Positions 16,684 to 43,584 of a stretch of DNA of 64,000 nt are shown here, one piece after another. Every line of letters begins with the position of its first letter. Position 1 is the first letter of the stretch. This DNA is from Octopus vulgaris (taxonomy: Eukaryota). The DNA is taken from positions 1,922,001 to 1,986,000 of the forward strand of contig OX597842.1 of the NCBI GenBank assembly GCA_951406725.2, read 5' to 3'. The notes beneath the pieces were generated by a model. That model ran no database searches. It saw only the letters and a list, made by a program, of their open reading frames with translations, and had not been told where the DNA came from. Both the position numbers and the translations under genes were made by a program.

Positions 16684-17185
16684 ATTGTTCGACCATGGTC
16701 GAGACAATGGAATTTACCATGCTACGCCAGACTTCACGGTCCATCATAGCATTACAGAGGTCATGTTGCTGGGTGCCTGAATCCCTGGAGATTACATCAG
16801 GGTAGGAGAGTGTGCGCCCTCTGGTATTGCGACCGTGGTCGAGACAATGGAATTTACCATGCTACGCCAGACTTCACAGTCCATCATAGCATTACGGAGG
16901 TCCTGTTGCTGGATGCCTGTATCCCTGGAGATTACATCAGGGTAGGGGAGTGTGCGCCCTCTGGTACTGCGACCGTGGTCGAGACAATGGAATTTACCAT
17001 GCTAAGCCAGACTTCACGGTCCATCACAGCATTACGGAGGTCCTGTTGCTGGATGCCTGTATCCCTGGAGATTACATCAGGGTAGGAGAGTGTACGTCCT
17101 CTGGTATTGCGAGTAGATGGCTTCCAGAGGAGAAGAGTAGAAATTGCCTCGTTTTCAGCTCTACAACAATGTCCAGAACGTTGTA
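16684..17185 (-). mobile_element. RTE-clade LINE 3' fragment with ~140-bp 3' end triplicated
   Basis: GHCCRAENE..LLLWKP..GRTLSYPDVISRDTG..DLRNAVMDREVW resembles an RTE/RTE-X ORF C-terminus; unit repeats at ~16690, 16829, 16969; (GAT)n tail. Confidence 0.75.
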
Positions 17186-17562: not shown

Positions 17563-18197
17563 TACTCTTACTCTTTACTCTTCTACTTGTTTCAGTCATT
17601 TGACTGCGGCCATGCTGGAGCACCACCTTTAATCAAGCAACTCGACCCCGGGACTTATTCTTTTGTAAGCCCAGTACTTACTCTATCGGTCTCTTTTGCC
17701 GAACCGCTAAGTAATGGGGACAAACACAGACACACAAATACACACATGCGCATATATATATATATGTATATATATATATACAAATTGAGATAGGGGTTGT
17801 AAATGCAACCCTCCATGGGATAACATATATCCAATATACTGCTAGTGAAGTACCCAACACGTTAATACATAAATGTTAAGGATTGCGATGCAATCAATTC
17901 ATTTACTGTATTATATGGGCAAAGGTAAAATGTTTTACCACAAATTCATAATACAAAATAAGAAAATGGAGAAATACATCTAAATCAATTATCAACTACC
18001 AGATAATACCCAATCACATAATTTATTAAACCACGACATATGAACATTTAAGTCAAACATATTAATATAGAACAAAACAGTGTACATGAAGGAATGTACA
18101 TAAAAATGTGTACATAAAAGAGTAATGTTGTATAATAAGTAGAATATATATAAAAAAGAGAATATAAATATAAGTAAATATAAATATAAGTATAGAT

Positions 18198-18330
18198 TAC
18201 ATCTTACAGCTGTTTCGGCCATGTAGATAAGTATGTCCCATTTTACCAATATTAGCCTTTTATGGTAGGTCAATATATAGATATAAATGAGACATTTACA
18301 AAAATATCATAAGGCCTCTTCGGAGATATA
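18198..18330 (-). ncRNA. Type I hammerhead motif with ~90-nt stem II insert (left arm)
   Basis: Mirror of 19171-19303. Confidence 0.75.
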
Positions 18331-19170
18331 CAAATACATATGAGTGCATATACTCACACTCCTATACATATAAAAATATACATATACATAATAATGTAAA
18401 TAAATAATATAAATTAGTAAACATATATATGTTCCATATTCAATGTTTCAGTTTTTCAACTTAATATTGTGATAATAAACATACACATATTAGTACCTAG
18501 ATGCAAATATACATAGTCAATAGTACATTATATTACTTCCTACTAATTTCTAAAGTGTCATTAAAGTTAGCATCATTATCGTTGTCAATACCATTAATGC
18601 TACTATTATTATCATTCATAATATTATTAATAACGCTTACATTAGGATCCAAAGTGGCACATATGTCTGTCCGGGTTCCAGTTAGTAATTTTCCTTATGA
18701 CATAAATACACTATTGGATTTGAATTTAAATTATCATTGTCTTCCTCATGGTTGGTCCGTTGAGAGCCGCCCGACCTCCACCACACCGCACAAGAAAAAC
18801 ATCCACGGAAAATTACTAACTGGAACCCGGACAGACATATGTGCCACTTTGGATCCTAATGTAAGCGTTATTAATAATATTATGAATGATAATAATGGTA
18901 ACATTAATGGTATTGACAACGATAATGATGCTAACTTTAATGACACTTAGGAAATTAGTAGGAAGTAATATAATGTACTATTGACTATGTATATTTGCAT
19001 CTAGGTACTAATATGTGTATGTTTATTATCACAATATTAAGTTAAAAAACTAAAACATTGAATGTGGAACATATATATGTTTACTAATTAATATTATTTA
19101 TTTACATTATTATGTATATGTATATTTTTATATGTATAGGAGTGTGAGTATATGCACTCATATGTATATG

Positions 19171-19303
19171 TATATCTCCGAAGAGGCCTTATGATATTTT
19201 TGTAAATGTCTCATTTATATCCATATATTGACCTACCATAAAAGGCTAATATTGGTAAAATGGGACATACTTATCTACATGGCCGAAACAGCTGTAAGAT
19301 GTA
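19171..19303 (+). ncRNA. Type I hammerhead motif with ~90-nt stem II insert (right arm)
   Basis: tatatct-CCGAAGA-ggcc[...]ggcc-GAAAC-agct-GTA-agatgta; 7-bp stem I, palindromic stem III acagctgt. Confidence 0.75.
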
Positions 19304-19548
19304 ATCTATACTTATATTTATATTTACTTATATTTATATTCTCTTTTTTATATATATTCTACTTATTATACAACATTACTCTTTTATGTACACATTTTTA
19401 TGTACATTCCTTTATGCACACTGATTTGTTCTGCTTTTTTATGTTTAACCCTACAGTCTCTTATGTGGTGGTTTAATAAAGTATGTGATTGAGTATTATC
19501 TGGTAATTGATATTTGATTTGGATGTATTTCTCCATTTTCTCATCTTG

Positions 19549-19600
<52 letters not shown>

Positions 19601-20164
19601 TACAATGGGCTTCTTTCAGTTTCCGTCTACCAAATCCACTCACAAGGCTTTGGTCGGCCCGAGGCTAAAATAGAAGATATTTGCCCAAGGTGCCACGCAG
19701 TGGGACTGAACCCGGAACCATGTGGTTGGTAAATAAGTTACTTACCACACAGCCACTCCTGCGCCTATATATATATACATACATACACACACATGTAGAG
19801 AGAGCACTAGGCAGAGTAGTAAGGGAGTTGCATTCACGAGTTGAAGATTGTGGTTTCAATTCCTAGACCGAGTGGTGCATTGTGTTCTTGAGCAAAACAC
19901 TTTATCTCACATTGCTTTGCCATCACTTCGACACCATATGCGCAGTACGCCATGCACTTGTCCCGGTAAAGTCCGTTTGATGGAGAGAGCGATCTACTGT
20001 GCAGCATAAACATTTGATCACTATAAGCAAATCACTGGTGCAGGTCATTTAGCGAAAACTGACCACTCATACATTATCTTCCATGGGAGAGCCCACCACT
20101 GATATTGCTTAATTTCTTCCGACCTGACAACCTAATAGCACAAATCAGTAAATATTGTTGACTG

Positions 20165-22833: not shown

Positions 22834-22994
22834 TATATATATGTTTGTATGCATTCTTAGACAATGACAGTGAGATCTAATAAAGGACTTATTTAAATAA
22901 TCACCTGAGGAGATGCATTTTATACTCTGGATATATGATAAATTATTACACATCTCATCAATGTACTAAAATGTAAAAATGTGTTGAAACAATT

Positions 22995-25398
22995 GTAGTG
23001 GAGGTGAAGGCGATGGTGGTGATGTTGGTTGTGTTTGGGACATGGTGTTGGTGATGGTGAATATGGTGGTGGCATTAGAGTAATAATAGTGGTGGTGGTG
23101 TTGGTGTGGCTGCAACAGTGGTGGTGGTGGTAGCAGATGTGATGAAGATGATGGTGGAGGTGATAGTGGTAATGGCGGTATTGTGGTGCTGGTGGTGCTG
23201 TTGTTACTGGTGTGATTGTAGTAGTAGTAGTAGTGGTGGTCATGCATTGTTGTGGCAGAGTGACAGTGTAGGATGGTGCACCCTCGCAGTGACACACGGT
23301 GGCATACTTATATGATGATGTACAGATATAAGCAGTGTAAGTGTACAGCGATATTGTCTCACAGTGCCACCACAACAGTGAGATAGCATAGCAGCTAGCA
23401 GCATGACTATAACAAAGTAGCCTCACAGTGTCACATATGGTATGCTAGACACACTAAAGTGTTGGCAACCTCTTGATCTTGACTCTTCTATAAAATTATT
23501 GCGTGAGGGAGAAGTGGATCGAGAGGATAGGGGATAGTGGGAGGAGATGCATGAAGGGGGAAGGGTAAGTTTGGTGTATAATGGATGGGAAGTGAGGTGG
23601 GATAAAAAAAACATTGGCAGTTGTGCTGTCTACAAGGGGTGGACAGTGGGAGGTTTTGGAGGCTGAGGGCAGGTTGAGTGTTTTAGGAATTTAACCACAG
23701 CCATCTGTTCCTTAAATACAATTAGGGACCAATTTACTCAACAGCCACACACCACTATGACCATCACTACTACAACTGTTCCTACAGCCTTCACTGCCAC
23801 CACTGTTAGCACCACAACTACTGTCACCTGTACAACTGTCACTCTTGTCATGACCACCACTATCAACCCTATGATCAGCACTATCACCACCACCATGGTG
23901 ACTGTCGCCATCGTTAACATTATCATTACAACCACCACTAAAACCATCACCACCACCACCACCACCATAATCACCATCACCACTACCACCATAATCACCG
24001 TCACCACTACCACCACCATCATAACTACCACAATCAATTTCACAACCACAACTTCATCACCACAACCACCGCTAACCAGCATCACCACCACCACCACACT
24101 TCACCACCAGCACGCTCCATCACCGCTACAACCACAACTACAATCCACTACTACCACTGCTACAACTATAACCATGGCCTCAACCATCCCACCACAACTA
24201 GCATGGACAGTATAAGTACCATTCTTACTACCACAGTAACTACAACCAAATCCACCTTCAACCAATAGAACCTCAACCATTTGTGCTACAACAAACACTA
24301 CTACCACCATCACAATCACCACACCTTTCACCCACCATCACAACTACCACTACAACCACAACCACCACCACTACAATATGTACAACATCTGACATCACCG
24401 TTGATGCCCCACCGCTACAGCAACATAACCACCACCACCACCGCCACCGCCACTCCTGCTGCTACCACCATTGTCACTGCAGTGATGGCCACCCCTTACT
24501 ACCACCTTCTCAATCTAATTAATGTGTAGAATATTGTTCTCAAGCAATTGTTGTAGCGGTGGTGGTGGTGGTGGTGGTGGTGGTGATAGTGATTGCCGGT
24601 GTTCTAGTAGTGGTGGTAGTAGTAGTAGAGTAGTGGTAGTAGTGGCGGTGGTGGTGGTAGTTGCTCTAATAGTAGTAGTAAGGGTGGGGGTGTAGTAGTT
24701 GTTCTAGTAGTAGTAGTAGTGGTAGTAGTGGTGGTGGTGGTGGTGGTGGTGGTGGGGGTAGTTGTTCTAAAGTGGTGGTGGTGGTTGTGGCGGTAGTGGT
24801 AATTGTGGTAGTGGTGTAGTAGTGGTTCTAGTGGTGGTGGTAATAGTAGTAGTGGTGGTGGTAGTAGCAGTGGTGGTGACAGTCATGGTGGAGCAGGTGA
24901 TGGTGGTGCTGATTGTAGTGGCAGTAGTTGGTGGTGGTAGCAGTGATGGCTGTGGTGATGGTGGTGGGTGTGGTAGTGGTTTGCATGGGGGTGGTCACGG
25001 TTGCGGTGGTGGTGGTAGTGGTGGTGGCATTAAAGGGTTGGTGTTGGCAGTAGCAGTGATGATTACAGATGGTGCTGGTGGCAACGGTGACAGAGGTGGT
25101 GGTGGTGGTGGTGGTGGTGGTGGTGGTGGTGGTGCCGTCAATCTAAAGACATGAGGTGGAAGGGCACGGAGACATCTCACTTATAAAGTGTGGGTGGGTC
25201 GGTGGGTGTGTGCATTATTAGCTTTCCTCTTACCGCCACTGCTCCACTCCTGCCTCTTGCCTCCTCCTCCTCCCACCACTCACCTACTTCAGCTTCCACT
25301 TCAGCTTATCACCATCTGATTATTTTACACACATTCAATCACCTAATTACATTGATGATGATGACGATAATGATGATGATGATGACGAACAGTGCTGG

Positions 25399-28222: not shown

Positions 28223-29132
28223 GAAGCTTGCTTACCAACTACATGGTTCTGGGTTCAGTCCCACTGCATGGAACCTTGGGCAAGTGTCTTCTACTATAGC
28301 CTCTTGCTGACCAAAGCCTTGTGAGTGGATTTGGCAGACAGAAACTGAAAGAAGCTCCTTGTACATATATATAAAGGATATGAGGGGTTTAATTCACTGG
28401 TGCTCTAAATGAATAGGTATACTGGGCAAGTGCTATAATTGGTCATCCGTAAGGTTCCAAGTTCATAGTTGAGGCTGGAACTAGGGATCCATATTAGGCT
28501 TCCAAATTAGCAGGTATAGATTATATTACAGGATAAAGGACAACAAATCCAAGGCAAGACAGGCATCTCAAGTCATTTAGAATATTTAATTAGGGTAAGG
28601 CAAAGTCTTACAGCTGTTTCTGGGATATCCCAAGATATTAACTGCTGAGTAATTTCCAATCTCAGCACGCCAAAGTGAAGGCATTTGAAAGGATAGACAT
28701 AAATATAATTTGTGGAACTTTATACGTGCTGGATTTCGGTCGAGCATTCTGTGTCTGGTTCTGGAAATTGTGTTTTGTAAACGACAGACTATGCTGATGC
28801 TCTTGCAGATGCTTGCGTATCCATATACGTAAATATTAACAAGTGAAACTAATTAGTACATAGGTAATCGTTTTTTTATTTCCTATATTTTCATTTGTTT
28901 TGCTTATTTTTACACTATGGTTTTTTGCTGAATTTTTTCTTGAGAAAACATTCTTCATGGTAAATGGCGATTTTGCCGCCTATATCTAGCATATAGGCTG
29001 TCCATTTTTTTAGTGGTCAGTCCTCTAAATTTTGTATATAAAAAAATTTTTAATCTTTGTATTTTTTTTTTAAATATGCTAGGCCACTGGTTTTAATTAA
29101 TTAATATCAATTTCTACCCTTATTTAATTTGA

Positions 29133-38052: not shown

Positions 38053-38255
38053 CTATATATATATATATATATATATATACGTTTAAATATTTGTTGTGCA
38101 AGATTTTTTATGTGAAGTCGTGTGTTGAAACAGATATTGTTATATTTCGGAATGGTCATATTGCCAGTTTAGCCAATAAAAACACACGCACTATATATTT
38201 GGTGTTATTTTGCTTCAGTGATATTTATTTTTTACATTAATCTTAATCTTATTTT

Positions 38256-38300
38256 GGCCAAAGTTCTTTCGTCACACTCCTGTGACCGCATCAGTGGTCC
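38256..38300 (-). ncRNA. Variant minimal hammerhead motif in PLE 3' region (left copy)
   Basis: Mirror of 43418-43462. Confidence 0.6.
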
Positions 38301-38817
38301 TTTGTTTTCTTCTCACTTACTTGTGTCTCTCCTTACTAACCGTCAGCCATTTTGTATTTCTATTGTATGTCTTCATTTGCGCATGCTTATATCTCTATGT
38401 GCGTCTATGTTTATTTAGTGTGTGGGGGGGGGGATGTCTGTAATATTTGTATCTTCTGGTTATATACATTCTTGTAATTTGTATTTTGTTTTTGTTGTTG
38501 TTGCTTTTGTTCTAATTTTGTTCATGTGTTTACATCCACCCATTATTATCATTACATATGCTTGTATGTATGTATAACAACAATATTAGTAATAATAATA
38601 ATAAATCTAATCGATAAAAAAAAAAAAAAAAAAAGAATATACATATACATATATATATATATACATACATATACATATACATATATATATATACATATAT
38701 ACACACACATATACACATATACATATACATATATATACACATATACATACATATAGATATTCATTTCTATTTCTTTAATTACCTGTGTATTTATTATGTT
38801 TGCAGGATCCACTATTG

Positions 38818-40966
38818 TCATATGTTGTGGTGTGCGCTATTGCTCCATTCTAGTTTTCTATTCAGGCTAGGTTTATTTTCTATTATATGTGTAGCTTCTG
38901 TAATTTGTCTAATTGTTGCATCTGTTCTATGTGTGGACAATATCTCAATCTCTATGTTATTGATTGATCCCCCGTGTTCTTGTTCGGCGTGTTGGTACAG
39001 AATCGATGAGCTTTTACCTTCCTTGAGTTGTCTCCAATGTTCATTCACCCGCTCACCAATGCTTCTTGCAGTTTCCCCTACGTATGTTACTGTCTTGTTA
39101 CTGCATCTTCCCTCTATACATCTTATACTATAGACCACATTTCTGGCTTTACAGTTCGTTTGTGGGCTAAATCTACATACAGTGCAATAGTTATCCGTAC
39201 AGAGAGTTCTACTAAAAGGATAGGTTCTACCAATTATAGATCTGATAGGGTTGCCTGGCTTTTCAACAACCTTAATTCTTAGTTTAAGTTTATCTAGGGT
39301 CCTTCTAAAGCGGTACGCTAGTTCACCTCCAGGGGTGGTGTCAACGAACATGACACTCTGGTATTTATGGCTATCATACCAAGAGTTGGCCTTCCTTATT
39401 TTCTTTTTGTCCTTTCTATAGTGTTCCATGACTTGTTCCTATAGAGTGGGCAAATCCCATTCCTATCATTACATAATATATTATCAAATTTCTTCATGGC
39501 TCCTTTGTATACTCTGATCCTTTCTTTATGGCTGTAACCTGAGAACTGCATGCGGTGAATGAAATACTGTATGTGTCTCTTTAATTCTGTAGGCTCGCAC
39601 ATGCGTGACACATTTCTCATTATTCTGACGAGGTCTGCCATCAAAATATTGAATTTGGCATTGCCCGCAATGGCTGAGTTCCGGTGGATCAGGTATTTTG
39701 AGGCCATAGGTTTTGCATAGTATGAATGAAGGATTTGGGTTTTATTTTTCACAATTTCTAGCCAGAGTTCAGTGTCTAGTACTGGTAGTCTATGGTTGGG
39801 GTGTTTAGTGGGGTAGTCTATTGTGACCTTAATACTCTGGTGGATGGAGTTAGCTATTTGCTGGATGCTCTCCATAGTATTAGTTTCTATTACTATATCA
39901 ACCGTACTCTCTTGTGGGGGTGCCTTTACTACTATATTGATATCATCAACATAGCGAGAGTACATGTTTACGAGTATGGATTTCTGCAGTAGGCATTCTT
40001 TAAGCCTTCTGTCCCACCATACCATGAAGAGGTTGGCCACATCACCAGCGATACTAACACCGATGGCTGCCCCCTCGTCCTGGGCATATATTTTATTATT
40101 AAATTTAAATGTGTGGCCTTTTAGGGTAACTCTTATACTAGCTCCTAGTGCATGTGCGATCATTTTCTTTACCTGATGGACATTTGCGGGGATCCGTATG
40201 GCTCTGGTCCATCCGCGCCATCTTTCTATATGTGTCTTCCTAGCCATAGAAGTAATTGTAGGCGGTCTACCTCTTAAACATCTACTGGGGCAGAAACTAC
40301 TAAGATTATGTTTATCTAAGTATTCACTATTATATGTCAGTCTAAGTAGGAGGCCCAGTTCTTCTGTGTCGACATTACAGAACTCCACCTGGCTCTCGTT
40401 GATCATCTCCACGCACTTCTCCACTGCAAAATCTACGTCAATCGATGGGTATAAGGATACCACATCCATGCTACCTACTATACATCCTGTCAAGTCACAA
40501 GTTTTGTTACAGTCACTGATCCTGCTTAGGAGATCTTCTGTGCTGTCACATACATCAGGTGACATCCTGATTATAGGGCGTATGATCATTGAGAGGAAGT
40601 AGGAGATTCTGTAATTGCTAGCGATATTCGCTCCACAGACTGGTCTTGTTGGTGGTCCTGCTATAGGGTCAGTAAAACCTTTATGGTCCTTGCGAAGTCC
40701 ATACAGTGCCGGGATATCATTGTTCCAGGCTTGGAAATTCTTTGCAGTACGTTTCTGAGGTCCCAGAACAATTGTCCACATCATCATGTGGGCATTGAGG
40801 ACCTTTTCTCTCTCCTCATGCGCCTGTACAGTTGTTACTTTTGTATTGGCGATATGAGGTTGCATTGCCTGGATGTAGTTCGGTAAGCTGTCTATTGACA
40901 TCCTGCCTGACTTATCCGTGGGAAGGCATATCACCTCTCCGTTCCTCGTGCGCTGAATGAGTGAAT
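38818..40966 (-). pseudogene. PLE RT/GIY-YIG ORF with a 1-bp frameshift
   Basis: A5 instead of A6 at ~39404-39408 splits it into track ORFs 39396..41039 and 38818..39429; could be a homopolymer sequencing error. Confidence 0.85.
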
Positions 40967-42905
40967 GAAACGTACTGCAAAGAATTTCCAAGCCTGGAAC
41001 AATGATATCCCGGCACTGTATGGACTTCGCAAGGACCATAAAGGTTTTACTGACCCTATAGCAGGACCACCAACAAGACCAGTCTGTGGAGCGAATATCG
41101 CTAGCAATTACAGAATCTCCTACTTCCTCTCAATGATCATACGCCCTATAATCAGGATGTCACCTGATGTATGTGACAGCACAGAAGATCTCCTAAGCAG
41201 GATCAGTGACTGTAACAAAACTTGTGACTTGACAGGATGTATAGTAGGTAGCATGGATGTGGTATCCTTATACCCATCGATTGACGTAGATTTTGCAGTG
41301 GAGAAGTGCGTGGAGATGATCAACGAGAGCCAGGTGGAGTTCTGTAATGTCGACACAGAAGAACTGGGCCTCCTACTTAGACTGACATATAATAGTGAAT
41401 ACTTAGATAAACATAATCTTAGTAGTTTCTGCCCCAGTAGATGTTTAAGAGGTAGACCGCCTACAATTACTTCTATGGCTAGGAAGACACATATAGAAAG
41501 ATGGCGCGGATGGACCAGAGCCATACGGATCCCCGCAAATGTCCATCAGGTAAAGAAAATGATCGCACATGCACTAGGAGCTAGTATAAGAGTTACCCTA
41601 AAAGGCCACACATTTAAATTTAATAATAAAATATATGCCCAGGACGAGGGGGCAGCCATCGGTGTTAGTATCGCTGGTGATGTGGCCAACCTCTTCATGG
41701 TATGGTGGGACAGAAGGCTTAAAGAATGCCTACTGCAGAAATCCATACTCGTAAACATGTACTCTCGCTATGTTGATGATATCAATATAGTAGTAAAGGC
41801 ACCCCCACAAGAGAGTACGGTTGATATAGTAATAGAAACTAATACTATGGAGAGCATCCAGCAAATAGCTAACTCCATCCACCAGAGTATTAAGGTCACA
41901 ATAGACTACCCCACTAAACACCCTAACCATAGACTACCAGTACTAGACACTGAACTCTGGCTAGAAATTGTGAAAAATAAAACCCAAATCCTTCATTCAT
42001 ACTATGCAAAACCTATGGCCTCAAAATACCTGATCCACCGGAACTCAGCCATTGCGGGCAATGCCAAATTCAATATTTTGATGGCAGACCTCGTCAGAAT
42101 AATGAGAAATGTGTCACGCATGTGCGAGCCTACAGAATTAAAGAGACACATACAGTATTTCATTCACCGCATGCAGTTCTCAGGTTACAGCCATAAAGAA
42201 AGGATCAGAGTATACAAAGGAGCCATGAAGAAATTTGATAATATATTATGTAATGATAGGAATGGGATTTGCCCACTCTATAGGAACAAGTCATGGAACA
42301 CTATAGAAAGGACAAAAAAGAAAATAAGGAAGGCCAACTCTTGGTATGATAGCCATAAATACCAGAGTGTCATGTTCGTTGACACCACCCCTGGAGGTGA
42401 ACTAGCGTACCGCTTTAGAAGGACCCTAGATAAACTTAAACTAAGAATTAAGGTTGTTGAAAAGCCAGGCAACCCTATCAGATCTATAATTGGTAGAACC
42501 TATCCTTTTAGTAGAACTCTCTGTACGGATAACTATTGCACTGTATGTAGATTTAGCCCACAAACGAACTGTAAAGCCAGAAATGTGGTCTATAGTATAA
42601 GATGTATAGAGGGAAGATGCAGTAACAAGACAGTAACATACGTAGGGGAAACTGCAAGAAGCATTGGTGAGCGGGTGAATGAACATTGGAGACAACTCAA
42701 GGAAGGTAAAAGCTCATCGATTCTGTACCAACACGCCGAACAAGAACACGGGGGATCAATCAATAACATAGAGATTAAGATATTGTCCACACATAGAACA
42801 GATGCAACAATTAGACAAATTACAGAAGCTACACATATAATAGAAAATAAACCTAGCCTGAATAGAAAACTAGAATGGAGCAATAGCGCACACCACAACA
42901 TATGA
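40965..42905 (+). CDS. Penelope-like reverse transcriptase + GIY-YIG endonuclease, 646 aa, N-terminally truncated
   Basis: RT motifs [33 protein letters not shown]; Cys linker CTDNYCTVC; [39 protein letters not shown]. Confidence 0.95.
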
Positions 42906-43576
42906 CAATAGTGGATCCTGCAAACATAATAAATACACAGGTAATTAAAGAAATAGAAATGAATATCTATATGTATGTATATGTGTATATATATGTATAT
43001 GTATATGTGTATATGTGTGTGTATATATGTATATATATATATGTATATGTATATGTATGTATATATATATATATGTATATGTATATTCTTTTTTTTTTTT
43101 TTTTCTCGATTAGATTTATTATTATTATTACTAATATTGTTGTTATACATACATACAAGCATATGTAATGATAATAATGGGTGGATGTAAACACATGAAC
43201 AAAATTAGAACAAAAGCAACAACAACAAAAACAAAATACAAATTACAAGAATGTATATAACCAGAAGATACAAATATTACAGACATCCCCCCCCACACAC
43301 TAAATAAACATAGACGCACATAGAGATATAAGCATGCGCAAATGAAGACATACAATAGAAATACAAAATGGCTGACGGTTAGTAAGGAGAGACACAAGTA
43401 AGTGAGAAGAAAACAAAGGACCACTGATGCGGTCACAGGAGTGTGACGAAAGAACTTTGGCCAAAATAAGATTAAGATTAATGTAAAAAATAAATATCAC
43501 TGAAGCAAAATAACACCAAATATATAGTGCGTGTGTTTTTATTGGCTAAACTGGCAATATGACCATTCCGAAATAT

Positions 43577-43584
<8 letters not shown>
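40967..43584 (+). mobile_element. Penelope-like element, right copy
   Basis: Reverse complement of 38134-40755; runs into (TA)n at ~43581. Confidence 0.95.
43418..43462 (+). ncRNA. Variant minimal hammerhead motif in PLE 3' region (right copy)
   Basis: ggacca-CTGATGC-g-gtcaca ggag tgtgac-GAAA-gaacTT-tggcc; A9C change plus one extra nt before stem II. Confidence 0.6.

What the first reader, a model, noticed from the sequence alone, without database searches (positions are those of the whole stretch)
17783..19551. Second large fold-back: non-coding element with a hammerhead whose stem II carries a ~90-nt insert
Seen: same architecture as the big PLE palindrome (head-to-head arms, left copy longer at the outer end, short spacer, flanked by (TA)n inside a SINE) but unrelated in sequence and without an RT ORF. 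Each arm has tatatct-CCGAAGA-ggcc...ggcc-GAAAC-agct-GTA-agatgta. Arm divergence argues against an assembly artefact. Inference: 3' region of another PLE family or a non-autonomous derivative. The long stem II insert would be missed by standard HHR searches.
Basis: partly seen in the sequence, partly recalled or inferred. Interest (0 to 1): 0.7.

Follow-up and report, generated by a model that had tools for sequence, protein, structure and literature searches.

The report
Long-armed hammerhead in Penelope retrotransposon end
This fold-back is two clipped tail ends of a protein-coding Penelope-like jumping gene lying head to head, each carrying a predicted self-cutting hammerhead RNA whose second arm is a conserved hairpin of about 100 bases, far longer than in the published examples I checked, though cutting is untested.

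Summary
Confirmed. The fold-back is a head-to-head pair of 5'-truncated 3' ends of an autonomous Penelope-like element, not a separate non-coding element. Walking upstream through other copies gave a ~5.1-kb parent with an RT + GIY-YIG ORF bearing the Hydra-clade motifs and a ~2.3-kb 3' UTR. Each arm holds a type I hammerhead with a U4C core, palindromic helix III and 100 nt between A9 and G12. That insert is a long hairpin: 8 of 29 pairs change on both sides across 6 subfamily representatives. Five sister families keep the core with 55-109-nt inserts. Published Hydra hammerheads have 3-7 bp stems II, and Rfam misses this one. Extras: the optional tail is ~170 nt (30-40 in print), and the left arm is a chimera of two subfamilies. 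Cleavage is untested; many copies run through the cut site, and a read-through RNA of this locus would pair the ribozyme with its antisense. This scan has noted long-stem-II Hydra hammerheads before on other DNA (e1-9545524, e1-8669291, e1-9560118). New variant of a known kind.

The parts
17780..18806 (-). Left copy: 5'-truncated 3' end of the Hydra-clade PLE, running to the outer terminus (unit positions 1-~1027)
   Evidence: matches the 3' UTR/pLTR of long copies L061, L064, L067; 18 of 45 arms end at this terminus
17780..17950 (-). Optional ~170-nt tail (the 'longer outer end'); the same sequence lies directly upstream of the ORF in long copies; predicted conserved hairpins
   Evidence: tail precedes ORF in L061, L067; 7 of 44 predicted pairs change on both sides, 10 sequences, no shuffle control
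17780..18093 (-). Outer part of the left arm, derived from sister subfamily A' (chimeric junction at ~18093)
   Evidence: unit 714-856 matches three A' copies at 138-141/143 and three A copies at 120-123/143; unit 603-713 matches A at 107-110/111 and A' at 62-65/111
18198..18330 (-). Type I hammerhead, left copy (core 18323-18205; predicted cut between 18205 and 18204)
18695..18806 (-). Apparent spacer = unpaired 5' part of the left copy
   Evidence: other copies run through it and up to ~2 kb further to the endonuclease ORF
18807..19552 (+). Right copy: inverted 5'-truncated 3' end, stopping at the inner terminus (unit 113-856), subfamily A throughout
   Evidence: 25 of 45 arms end at this terminus
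19171..19303 (+). Type I hammerhead, right copy: stem I 19171-19177/19297-19303, core 19178-19184 (U4C), helix III palindrome, predicted cut after 19296
19185..19284 (+). 100-nt stem II: long irregular hairpin with compensatory changes between subfamilies
17576..17779 (.). Left half of the interrupted SINE-sized repeat plus (CA)/(TA) microsatellite (target site)
   Evidence: tRNA origin of the repeat not tested
19553..19768 (.). (TA)n and right half of the interrupted repeat

Best explanation
The fold-back is a head-to-head pair of 5'-truncated 3' ends of a high-copy Hydra-type Penelope-like retrotransposon inserted in a (TA)n tract, and each end carries a type I hammerhead with a conserved ~100-nt hairpin as stem II that is predicted to cut weakly and as a dimer. 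Shown: copy family, two fixed 3' termini, (TA)n targets, upstream RT + GIY-YIG ORF, conserved core, covarying stem II, chimeric left arm. Inferred: the element's endonuclease nicks (TA)n, reverse transcription starts at either of two internal sites ~170 nt apart (giving arms with and without tail, as shown in vitro for an Anolis PLE, PMC11167929), stops early, and a second strand or template gives the inverted arm. The left arm likely began on a subfamily A' template (or a pre-existing A' stub) and continued in register on subfamily A. The ribozyme likely acts in tandem pLTR-ORF-pLTR transcripts of long copies, where two same-strand motifs can pair through the 8-nt palindrome; at this locus it is probably inert.
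For: 1558 first-look candidates, all 40 scored places at 98-100%. 43 of 45 arms end at one of two termini and 42 of 45 abut a TA-type microsatellite. 7 of 29 loci picked on 3' sequence have an adjacent inverted arm. Parent ORF with RWK, DKT, CxCX5C, no CCHH, CxxC and CxH (against the definition); of 100 homologs 81 have RW[KR], 94 DK[TS], 78 CxCx5C, 0 ADKG. Core and palindromic helix III kept in families A-F with inserts of 100, 85-86, 55, 97, 109 and 66 nt. 8 of 29 pairs change on both sides in 6 representatives (shuffle mean 3.3, 0/500; slid controls 1-3). 10 of 13 inserts fold with z below -2. Between A and A' the ribozyme region is 99-104/119 identical but the next 111 nt only 62-75/111. 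Two copies cofold into the double-hammerhead at -75.9 versus -61.0 kcal/mol for two monomers. Family B has long copies with same-strand hammerheads 5.6 kb apart (L161, L162).
Against: No cleavage data. U4C lowers activity in vitro (PMC3088659 passage). Stem I shows 0 of 4 compensatory pairs, its fourth pair is broken in 3 of 6 representatives, and its predicted pairing probability in context is at most 0.2. 3 of 13 inserts do not fold better than shuffles (z -1.96 to +0.6). On the 12-sequence alignment the pair-count measure was not above shuffles (8 versus 6.7, 107/500). The structure was derived from an overlapping alignment and the sequences are related. 5' ends do not pile up at the cut: 18 of 39 family-A arm records and 25 of 30 family-B copies run through it. 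0 of 7 long copies examined has one uninterrupted ORF. Pfam found no RT or GIY-YIG family on the two ORF pieces. No tree was built.
Confidence: 0.88

Rival explanations
1. The element identity holds, but the family-A hammerhead is catalytically dead or nearly so; the long hairpin is kept for another job (protein binding, RNA stability) and the core is a relic.
For: U4C core in A and A'; weak stem I; many copies copied from uncut RNA; hammerhead mutants did not impair insertion in vitro for the Anolis PLE (PMC11167929).
Against: Core bases and the helix III palindrome stay in six families whose inserts differ in length from 55 to 109 nt; a different palindrome replaces it in family C; two A variants rebuild stem I differently after a ~66-nt deletion.
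Confidence: 0.25
2. A stand-alone non-autonomous non-coding element (retrozyme or fold-back/MITE-like unit) that moves as the palindrome.
For: No ORF in the arms beyond one 149-aa stop-free frame without a credible Pfam hit; high copy number.
Against: 5' ends vary freely and copies extend into the RT-EN ORF; only 7 of 29 loci are two-armed and their junctions differ; no tandem monomer arrays among the loci examined.
Confidence: 0.04
3. Assembly or amplification artefact (fold-back chimera of reads).
For: Long inverted repeats are a known artefact class (general knowledge).
Against: Arms differ at 33 aligned positions, 25 of which have both alleles in at least 3 other copies; arms end at two different family termini; the left arm carries a subfamily A' segment absent from the right arm.
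Confidence: 0.02

Closest known systems
Hydra clade of C-terminal EN+ PLEs, e.g. Hydra-1_Obim of Octopus bimaculoides (Craig et al. 2021, PMC8557442; sections 3, 11, 12, passages, and supplement File S1/S2 tables read)
   Same: RWK, DKT, CxCX5C linker, no CCHH, CxxC/CxH in the endonuclease, (TA)n targets, 3' type I hammerhead with palindromic helix III, inverted 5'-truncated copies, tail at one end.
   Different: 5.1-5.6 kb rather than under 3 kb; ~2.3-kb 3' UTR; Asn-rich stretch in the ORF; stem II region 55-109 nt versus 3-7 bp plus a 3-10-nt loop for Hydra rows of File S2; tail ~170 nt versus 30-40; U4C core. Hammerhead sequence unlike that of Hydra-1_Obim.
Minimal/dimeric PLE hammerheads (Cervera & de la Pena 2014, PMC4209133; parts 1-2 of 4 read)
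   Same: Type I topology, unstable palindromic helix III, predicted dimer, location in pLTRs, pairs on opposite strands a few hundred bases apart.
   Different: Their 'larger than usual' helix II is 6-8 bp; here ~33-37 predicted pairs. No extra base between A9 and 10.1 in family A.
PAc Poseidon element of Anolis (Frangieh et al. 2024, PMC11167929; parts 1-2 of 4 read)
   Same: Two fixed 3' termini defining an optional tail; AT-rich targets; insertion from uncut RNA.
   Different: Different clade; tail and both termini lie before the ORF start here; mechanism here is inferred from copy ends only.
Head-to-head inverted pLTRs of Adineta vaga Penelope elements (PMC3846280; passages read)
   Same: Head-to-head inverted ends, optional tail on one arm, Asn-rich ORF inserts.
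   Different: 31-bp tail and ~200-bp pLTRs there; the passages read describe no two-subfamily chimeric arm.

Membership tests
Penelope-like element (EN+) | RT followed by C-terminal GIY-YIG endonuclease in the parent element | tested here: met
   RT core and VVY..YIG endonuclease upstream of the arm sequence in L061, L067; broken in 7 of 7 long copies; Pfam silent
Penelope-like element (EN+) | pLTR partial tandem, 5' truncation, inverted 5' copy, optional tail | tested here: met
Hydra clade | RWK and DKT motifs in the RT N-terminal region | tested here: met
Hydra clade | CxCX5C linker, no CCHH, CxxC and CxH around the conserved E/N | tested here: met
   (L067, L068)
Hydra clade | Insertion into (TA)n | tested here: met
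   42 of 45 arm ends
Hydra clade | Generally short (<3 kb) with canonical hammerhead (typical, not strictly defining) | tested here: not met
   5.1-5.6 kb, long stem II, U4C
Hydra clade | Placement in an RT phylogeny with reference Hydra sequences | not tested
   compared by motif and by eye with supplement alignments; no tree
Type I hammerhead ribozyme | Core C3 U4 G5 A6 N7 G8 A9, G12 A13 A14, A15.1-U16.1, H17 | tested here: met
   all met except U4, which is C in families A/A' and U in B-E; U4C is a reported natural variant
Type I hammerhead ribozyme | Helix II supported by compensatory change | tested here: met
   8 of 25 stem II pairs change on both sides
Type I hammerhead ribozyme | Helix I supported by compensatory change | tested here: inconclusive
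   2 of 4 pairs invariant, 0 compensatory; 7 bp in this locus
Type I hammerhead ribozyme | Site-specific self-cleavage | not testable with these tools
   no assay; copy 5' ends show no pile-up at the site
Animal non-LTR retrozyme | Non-coding 150-450-nt units in head-to-tail tandem | tested here: not met
   copies are variable 3' ends of a coding element (definition from PMC7229834 passages)

The most novel reading that the evidence does not exclude
In a radiation of octopus-type Hydra elements the hammerhead's stem II has become a dedicated 55-110-nt structured module under selection, probably a binding handle for the element's own protein that gates cleavage or positions reverse transcription together with the structured 170-nt tail; a catalytic core used as scaffold for a protein-controlled switch, invisible to standard hammerhead descriptors and present in thousands of copies.
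Probability: 0.25. Interest if true: 0.65.

Novelty: new variant of a known kind. Interest (0 to 1): 0.38.

Why it matters
The role of hammerheads in Penelope-like elements is open. A set of young, high-copy sister families with the same core but stems II of 55, 66, 85, 97, 100 and 109 nt, with U4 or C4, is a ready natural series for testing what the ribozyme needs and whether the element's protein assists it. It also shows that descriptor and Rfam searches undercount hammerheads in such genomes. The ~170-nt tail and the in-register A'/A chimera give checkable footprints of where reverse transcription starts and of template exchange between subfamilies. The locus itself is an ordinary, probably inert insertion.

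Tried and rejected
Rfam: no hammerhead among the 150 best of 395 window matches or among 7 matches on 19100-19400. Pfam on the family-A ORF pieces: nothing meaningful. The 149-aa frame across the junction: no credible family. Relation to the big PLE: no blastn hit, best blastp E 0.007; rejected as parent. 5'-end pile-up at the cut site: family A has 21 of 39 arm records starting +2 to +84 and 18 running through; family B 5 of 30 starting +7 to +51 and 25 running through; by eye one A and one B copy begin at the first base after the cut, not more than chance would give, and the TA-rich region blurs ends; inconclusive. Expression: no RNA holder listed; only contigs could be laid, which cannot show starts or ends. 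Upstream endonuclease not seen within 1.5 kb for families D, E, F; D and E are tied in by shared termini and tail, F is not tied to any ORF. Lunse et al. (PMC5785218) on PLE hammerhead variants was not held, so longer stems II reported there cannot be excluded; supplements of PMC4209133 and PMC3088659 were not read and the Craig supplement is cut in storage. Literature searches without a report of 50-100-nt PLE stems II: (listings; passages of PMC13725137, PMC6765202, PMC7229834 and bioRxiv 10.64898/2026.07.22.740005 read). Search of earlier scan findings by sequence gave nothing.

Full report
Observation. The inverted repeat is real: arms 17948-18694 and 18807-19555, 716 matches, 30 mismatches, 4 gap columns. 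Each arm has the motif described, on + 19178-19296 and - 18323-18205, with 100 nt between A9 and G12 and a predicted cut after 19296. The insert folds into one long irregular hairpin, better than all 200 shuffles (z -3.5). The flanks are two halves of one SINE-sized repeat that lie 55-164 nt apart in 11 of 16 flank pairs elsewhere in the window. Below, 'unit position' counts along the left copy from 18806 (1) towards 17783 (1024).

Copy family. The own genome is 2.8 Gb; its repeats and the best named protein hit (Argonauta hians, 41%) point to an octopod, which is my inference. The hammerhead region gave 1558 first-look candidates, and all 40 scored places matched at 98-100%. Among 45 arms in 29 loci, 25 end near unit 856 and 18 near 1024, and 42 abut a TA-type microsatellite. 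5' ends vary. 7 of 29 loci picked on 3' sequence carry an adjacent inverted arm. The 'spacer' is the extra 5' length of the left copy.

Parent element. Two upstream walks reached a GIY-YIG endonuclease frame ending ~1.9 kb before the hammerhead; longer stretches gave RT as well (L061, L067). The unit is ~5.1 kb: tail sequence, ORF, ~2.3-kb 3' UTR. The protein has RWK, DKT, a CxCX5C linker, no CCHH, and CxxC and CxH, the features that define the Hydra clade in Craig et al. 2021 (PMC8557442, section 11); its 100 homologs mostly share them (81, 94 and 78 of 100; 0 with ADKG). A Hydra family from Octopus is already in that paper (2507 bp) with a different, short hammerhead. None of 7 long copies examined (5 of family A, 2 of B) has one uninterrupted ORF; they break at different places. 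No tree was built. The big PLE in the window is unrelated.

The hammerhead across families. Loci fetched on the way held sister motifs, which I followed with five searches: B (85-86-nt insert, U4, GUC; 1274 candidates), C (55; endonuclease upstream; 1526), D (97; 772), E (109; 863), F (66; 1160), and later subfamily A' (100). Candidate numbers are first-look counts, not copy numbers. All keep C3, G5, A6, G8, A9, GAAA, U16.1 and a self-complementary helix III octamer, with a different palindrome in C. U4C occurs in A, A' and part of F. For one representative each of A, A', B1, B2, B3 and D, 8 of 29 pairs change on both sides (shuffles: mean 3.3, 0 of 500 as high; slid partners 1-3), all 8 in stem II. 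On the earlier 12-sequence alignment the cell count was above shuffles (28 versus 11.8) but the pair count was not (8 versus 6.7, 107 of 500). The structure came from RNAalifold on that alignment plus 5 hand-added pairs, and C, E, F were left out because I did not try to align them. 10 of 13 inserts have z below -2; the two E copies and one F copy do not. Between A and A' the ribozyme is 99-104 of 119 identical, the next 111 nt only 62-75, which fits selection on the motif. Stem I is weakly supported (0 of 4 compensatory).

Comparison with print. Hydra rows of Craig's File S2 have 3-7-bp stems II with 3-10-nt loops; the longest loop in the whole table is 35 nt. Cervera and de la Pena-8 bp large, as does a 2026 paper on viral hammerheads. 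I could not read Lunse et al..

How it likely works. As a monomer helix III is one pair; two copies cofold through the 8-nt palindrome at -75.9 versus -61.0 kcal/mol, the dimer form known for PLE hammerheads. Long family-B copies have two same-strand motifs 5.6 kb apart, the arrangement needed. U4C lowers activity in vitro (PMC3088659). Many copies were made from uncut RNA: 18 of 39 A arm records and 25 of 30 B copies run through the site, in line with the Anolis PLE, where uncut RNA is the main substrate and cleavage needs the protein (PMC11167929). At this locus a read-through RNA would pair 118 of the 119 ribozyme bases with the antisense arm, so it is probably inert here.

Tail and chimera. 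The two termini define a ~170-nt optional tail (30-40 nt). It is alignable across A, B, D and E, with predicted hairpins near both termini, 7 of 44 pairs changing on both sides (no shuffle control; lead from e1-9560118). By analogy these are likely two RT start sites. The left arm is subfamily A up to unit 713 and A' from 714 (window ~18093) outward, the right arm is A throughout; it is the only such chimera among 70 classifiable copies. Template switching, in-register priming at an older A' stub and later gene conversion all fit; I cannot separate them.

Verdict. A known architecture and a known ribozyme-element association, with an unusual and apparently selected long stem II. The scan has already noted long-stem-II Hydra hammerheads on other DNA; this report adds the full parent, covariation for a 100-nt stem, the long tail and the chimeric arm. 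New variant of a known kind; interest 0.38.

Noticed in passing
window 17780-18093 (-): Left arm is an in-register chimera of subfamilies A and A'; 1 of 70 classifiable copies.
   Followed up: yes
window 22905-22997 (+): Another hammerhead-like motif with a 74-nt stem II region, 10 closing pairs and a palindromic helix III, inside or next to an inverted repeat.
   Followed up: no
window 38134-43584: The big PLE fold-back: 646-aa frame with weak RT and GIY-YIG Pfam hits; cysteine linker and CCHH-like residues suggest Neptune/Nematis type (my reading); a hammerhead-like core near 43424 with an unusual layout.
   Followed up: partly
window ~28560-28700 (-): 3' half of a hammerhead core with the same helix III palindrome, without a matching 5' core in range; perhaps a truncated end of a further family.
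   Followed up: no
L241:1923-2016 (-): A further family's hammerhead with a nearly perfect 55-nt stem II and the same palindrome.
   Followed up: no
runs X11, X12, X13 laid on window 18807-19560: A>G makes up 18 of 35, 14 of 31 and 15 of 42 differing places in three runs of organism B, against 5-8 of 18-32 in five other runs; could be A-to-I editing of fold-back RNA, but RNA status is a guess and no DNA run of that organism was laid.
   Followed up: partly
L067:4520-4760 and L161/L162 ORFs: Asn-rich in-frame stretches between RT and endonuclease that differ between copies and families, recalling N-rich inserts in Adineta Penelope ORFs.
   Followed up: no
L067:7395-7465 versus window 19150-19177: The window's variant lacks ~66 nt just upstream of stem I; the new junction still gives a 7-bp stem I, whereas the longer variant has 4 bp plus a bulged extension.
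   Followed up: partly
window 16700-17115: Three tandem ~130-nt units just upstream of the locus.
   Followed up: no
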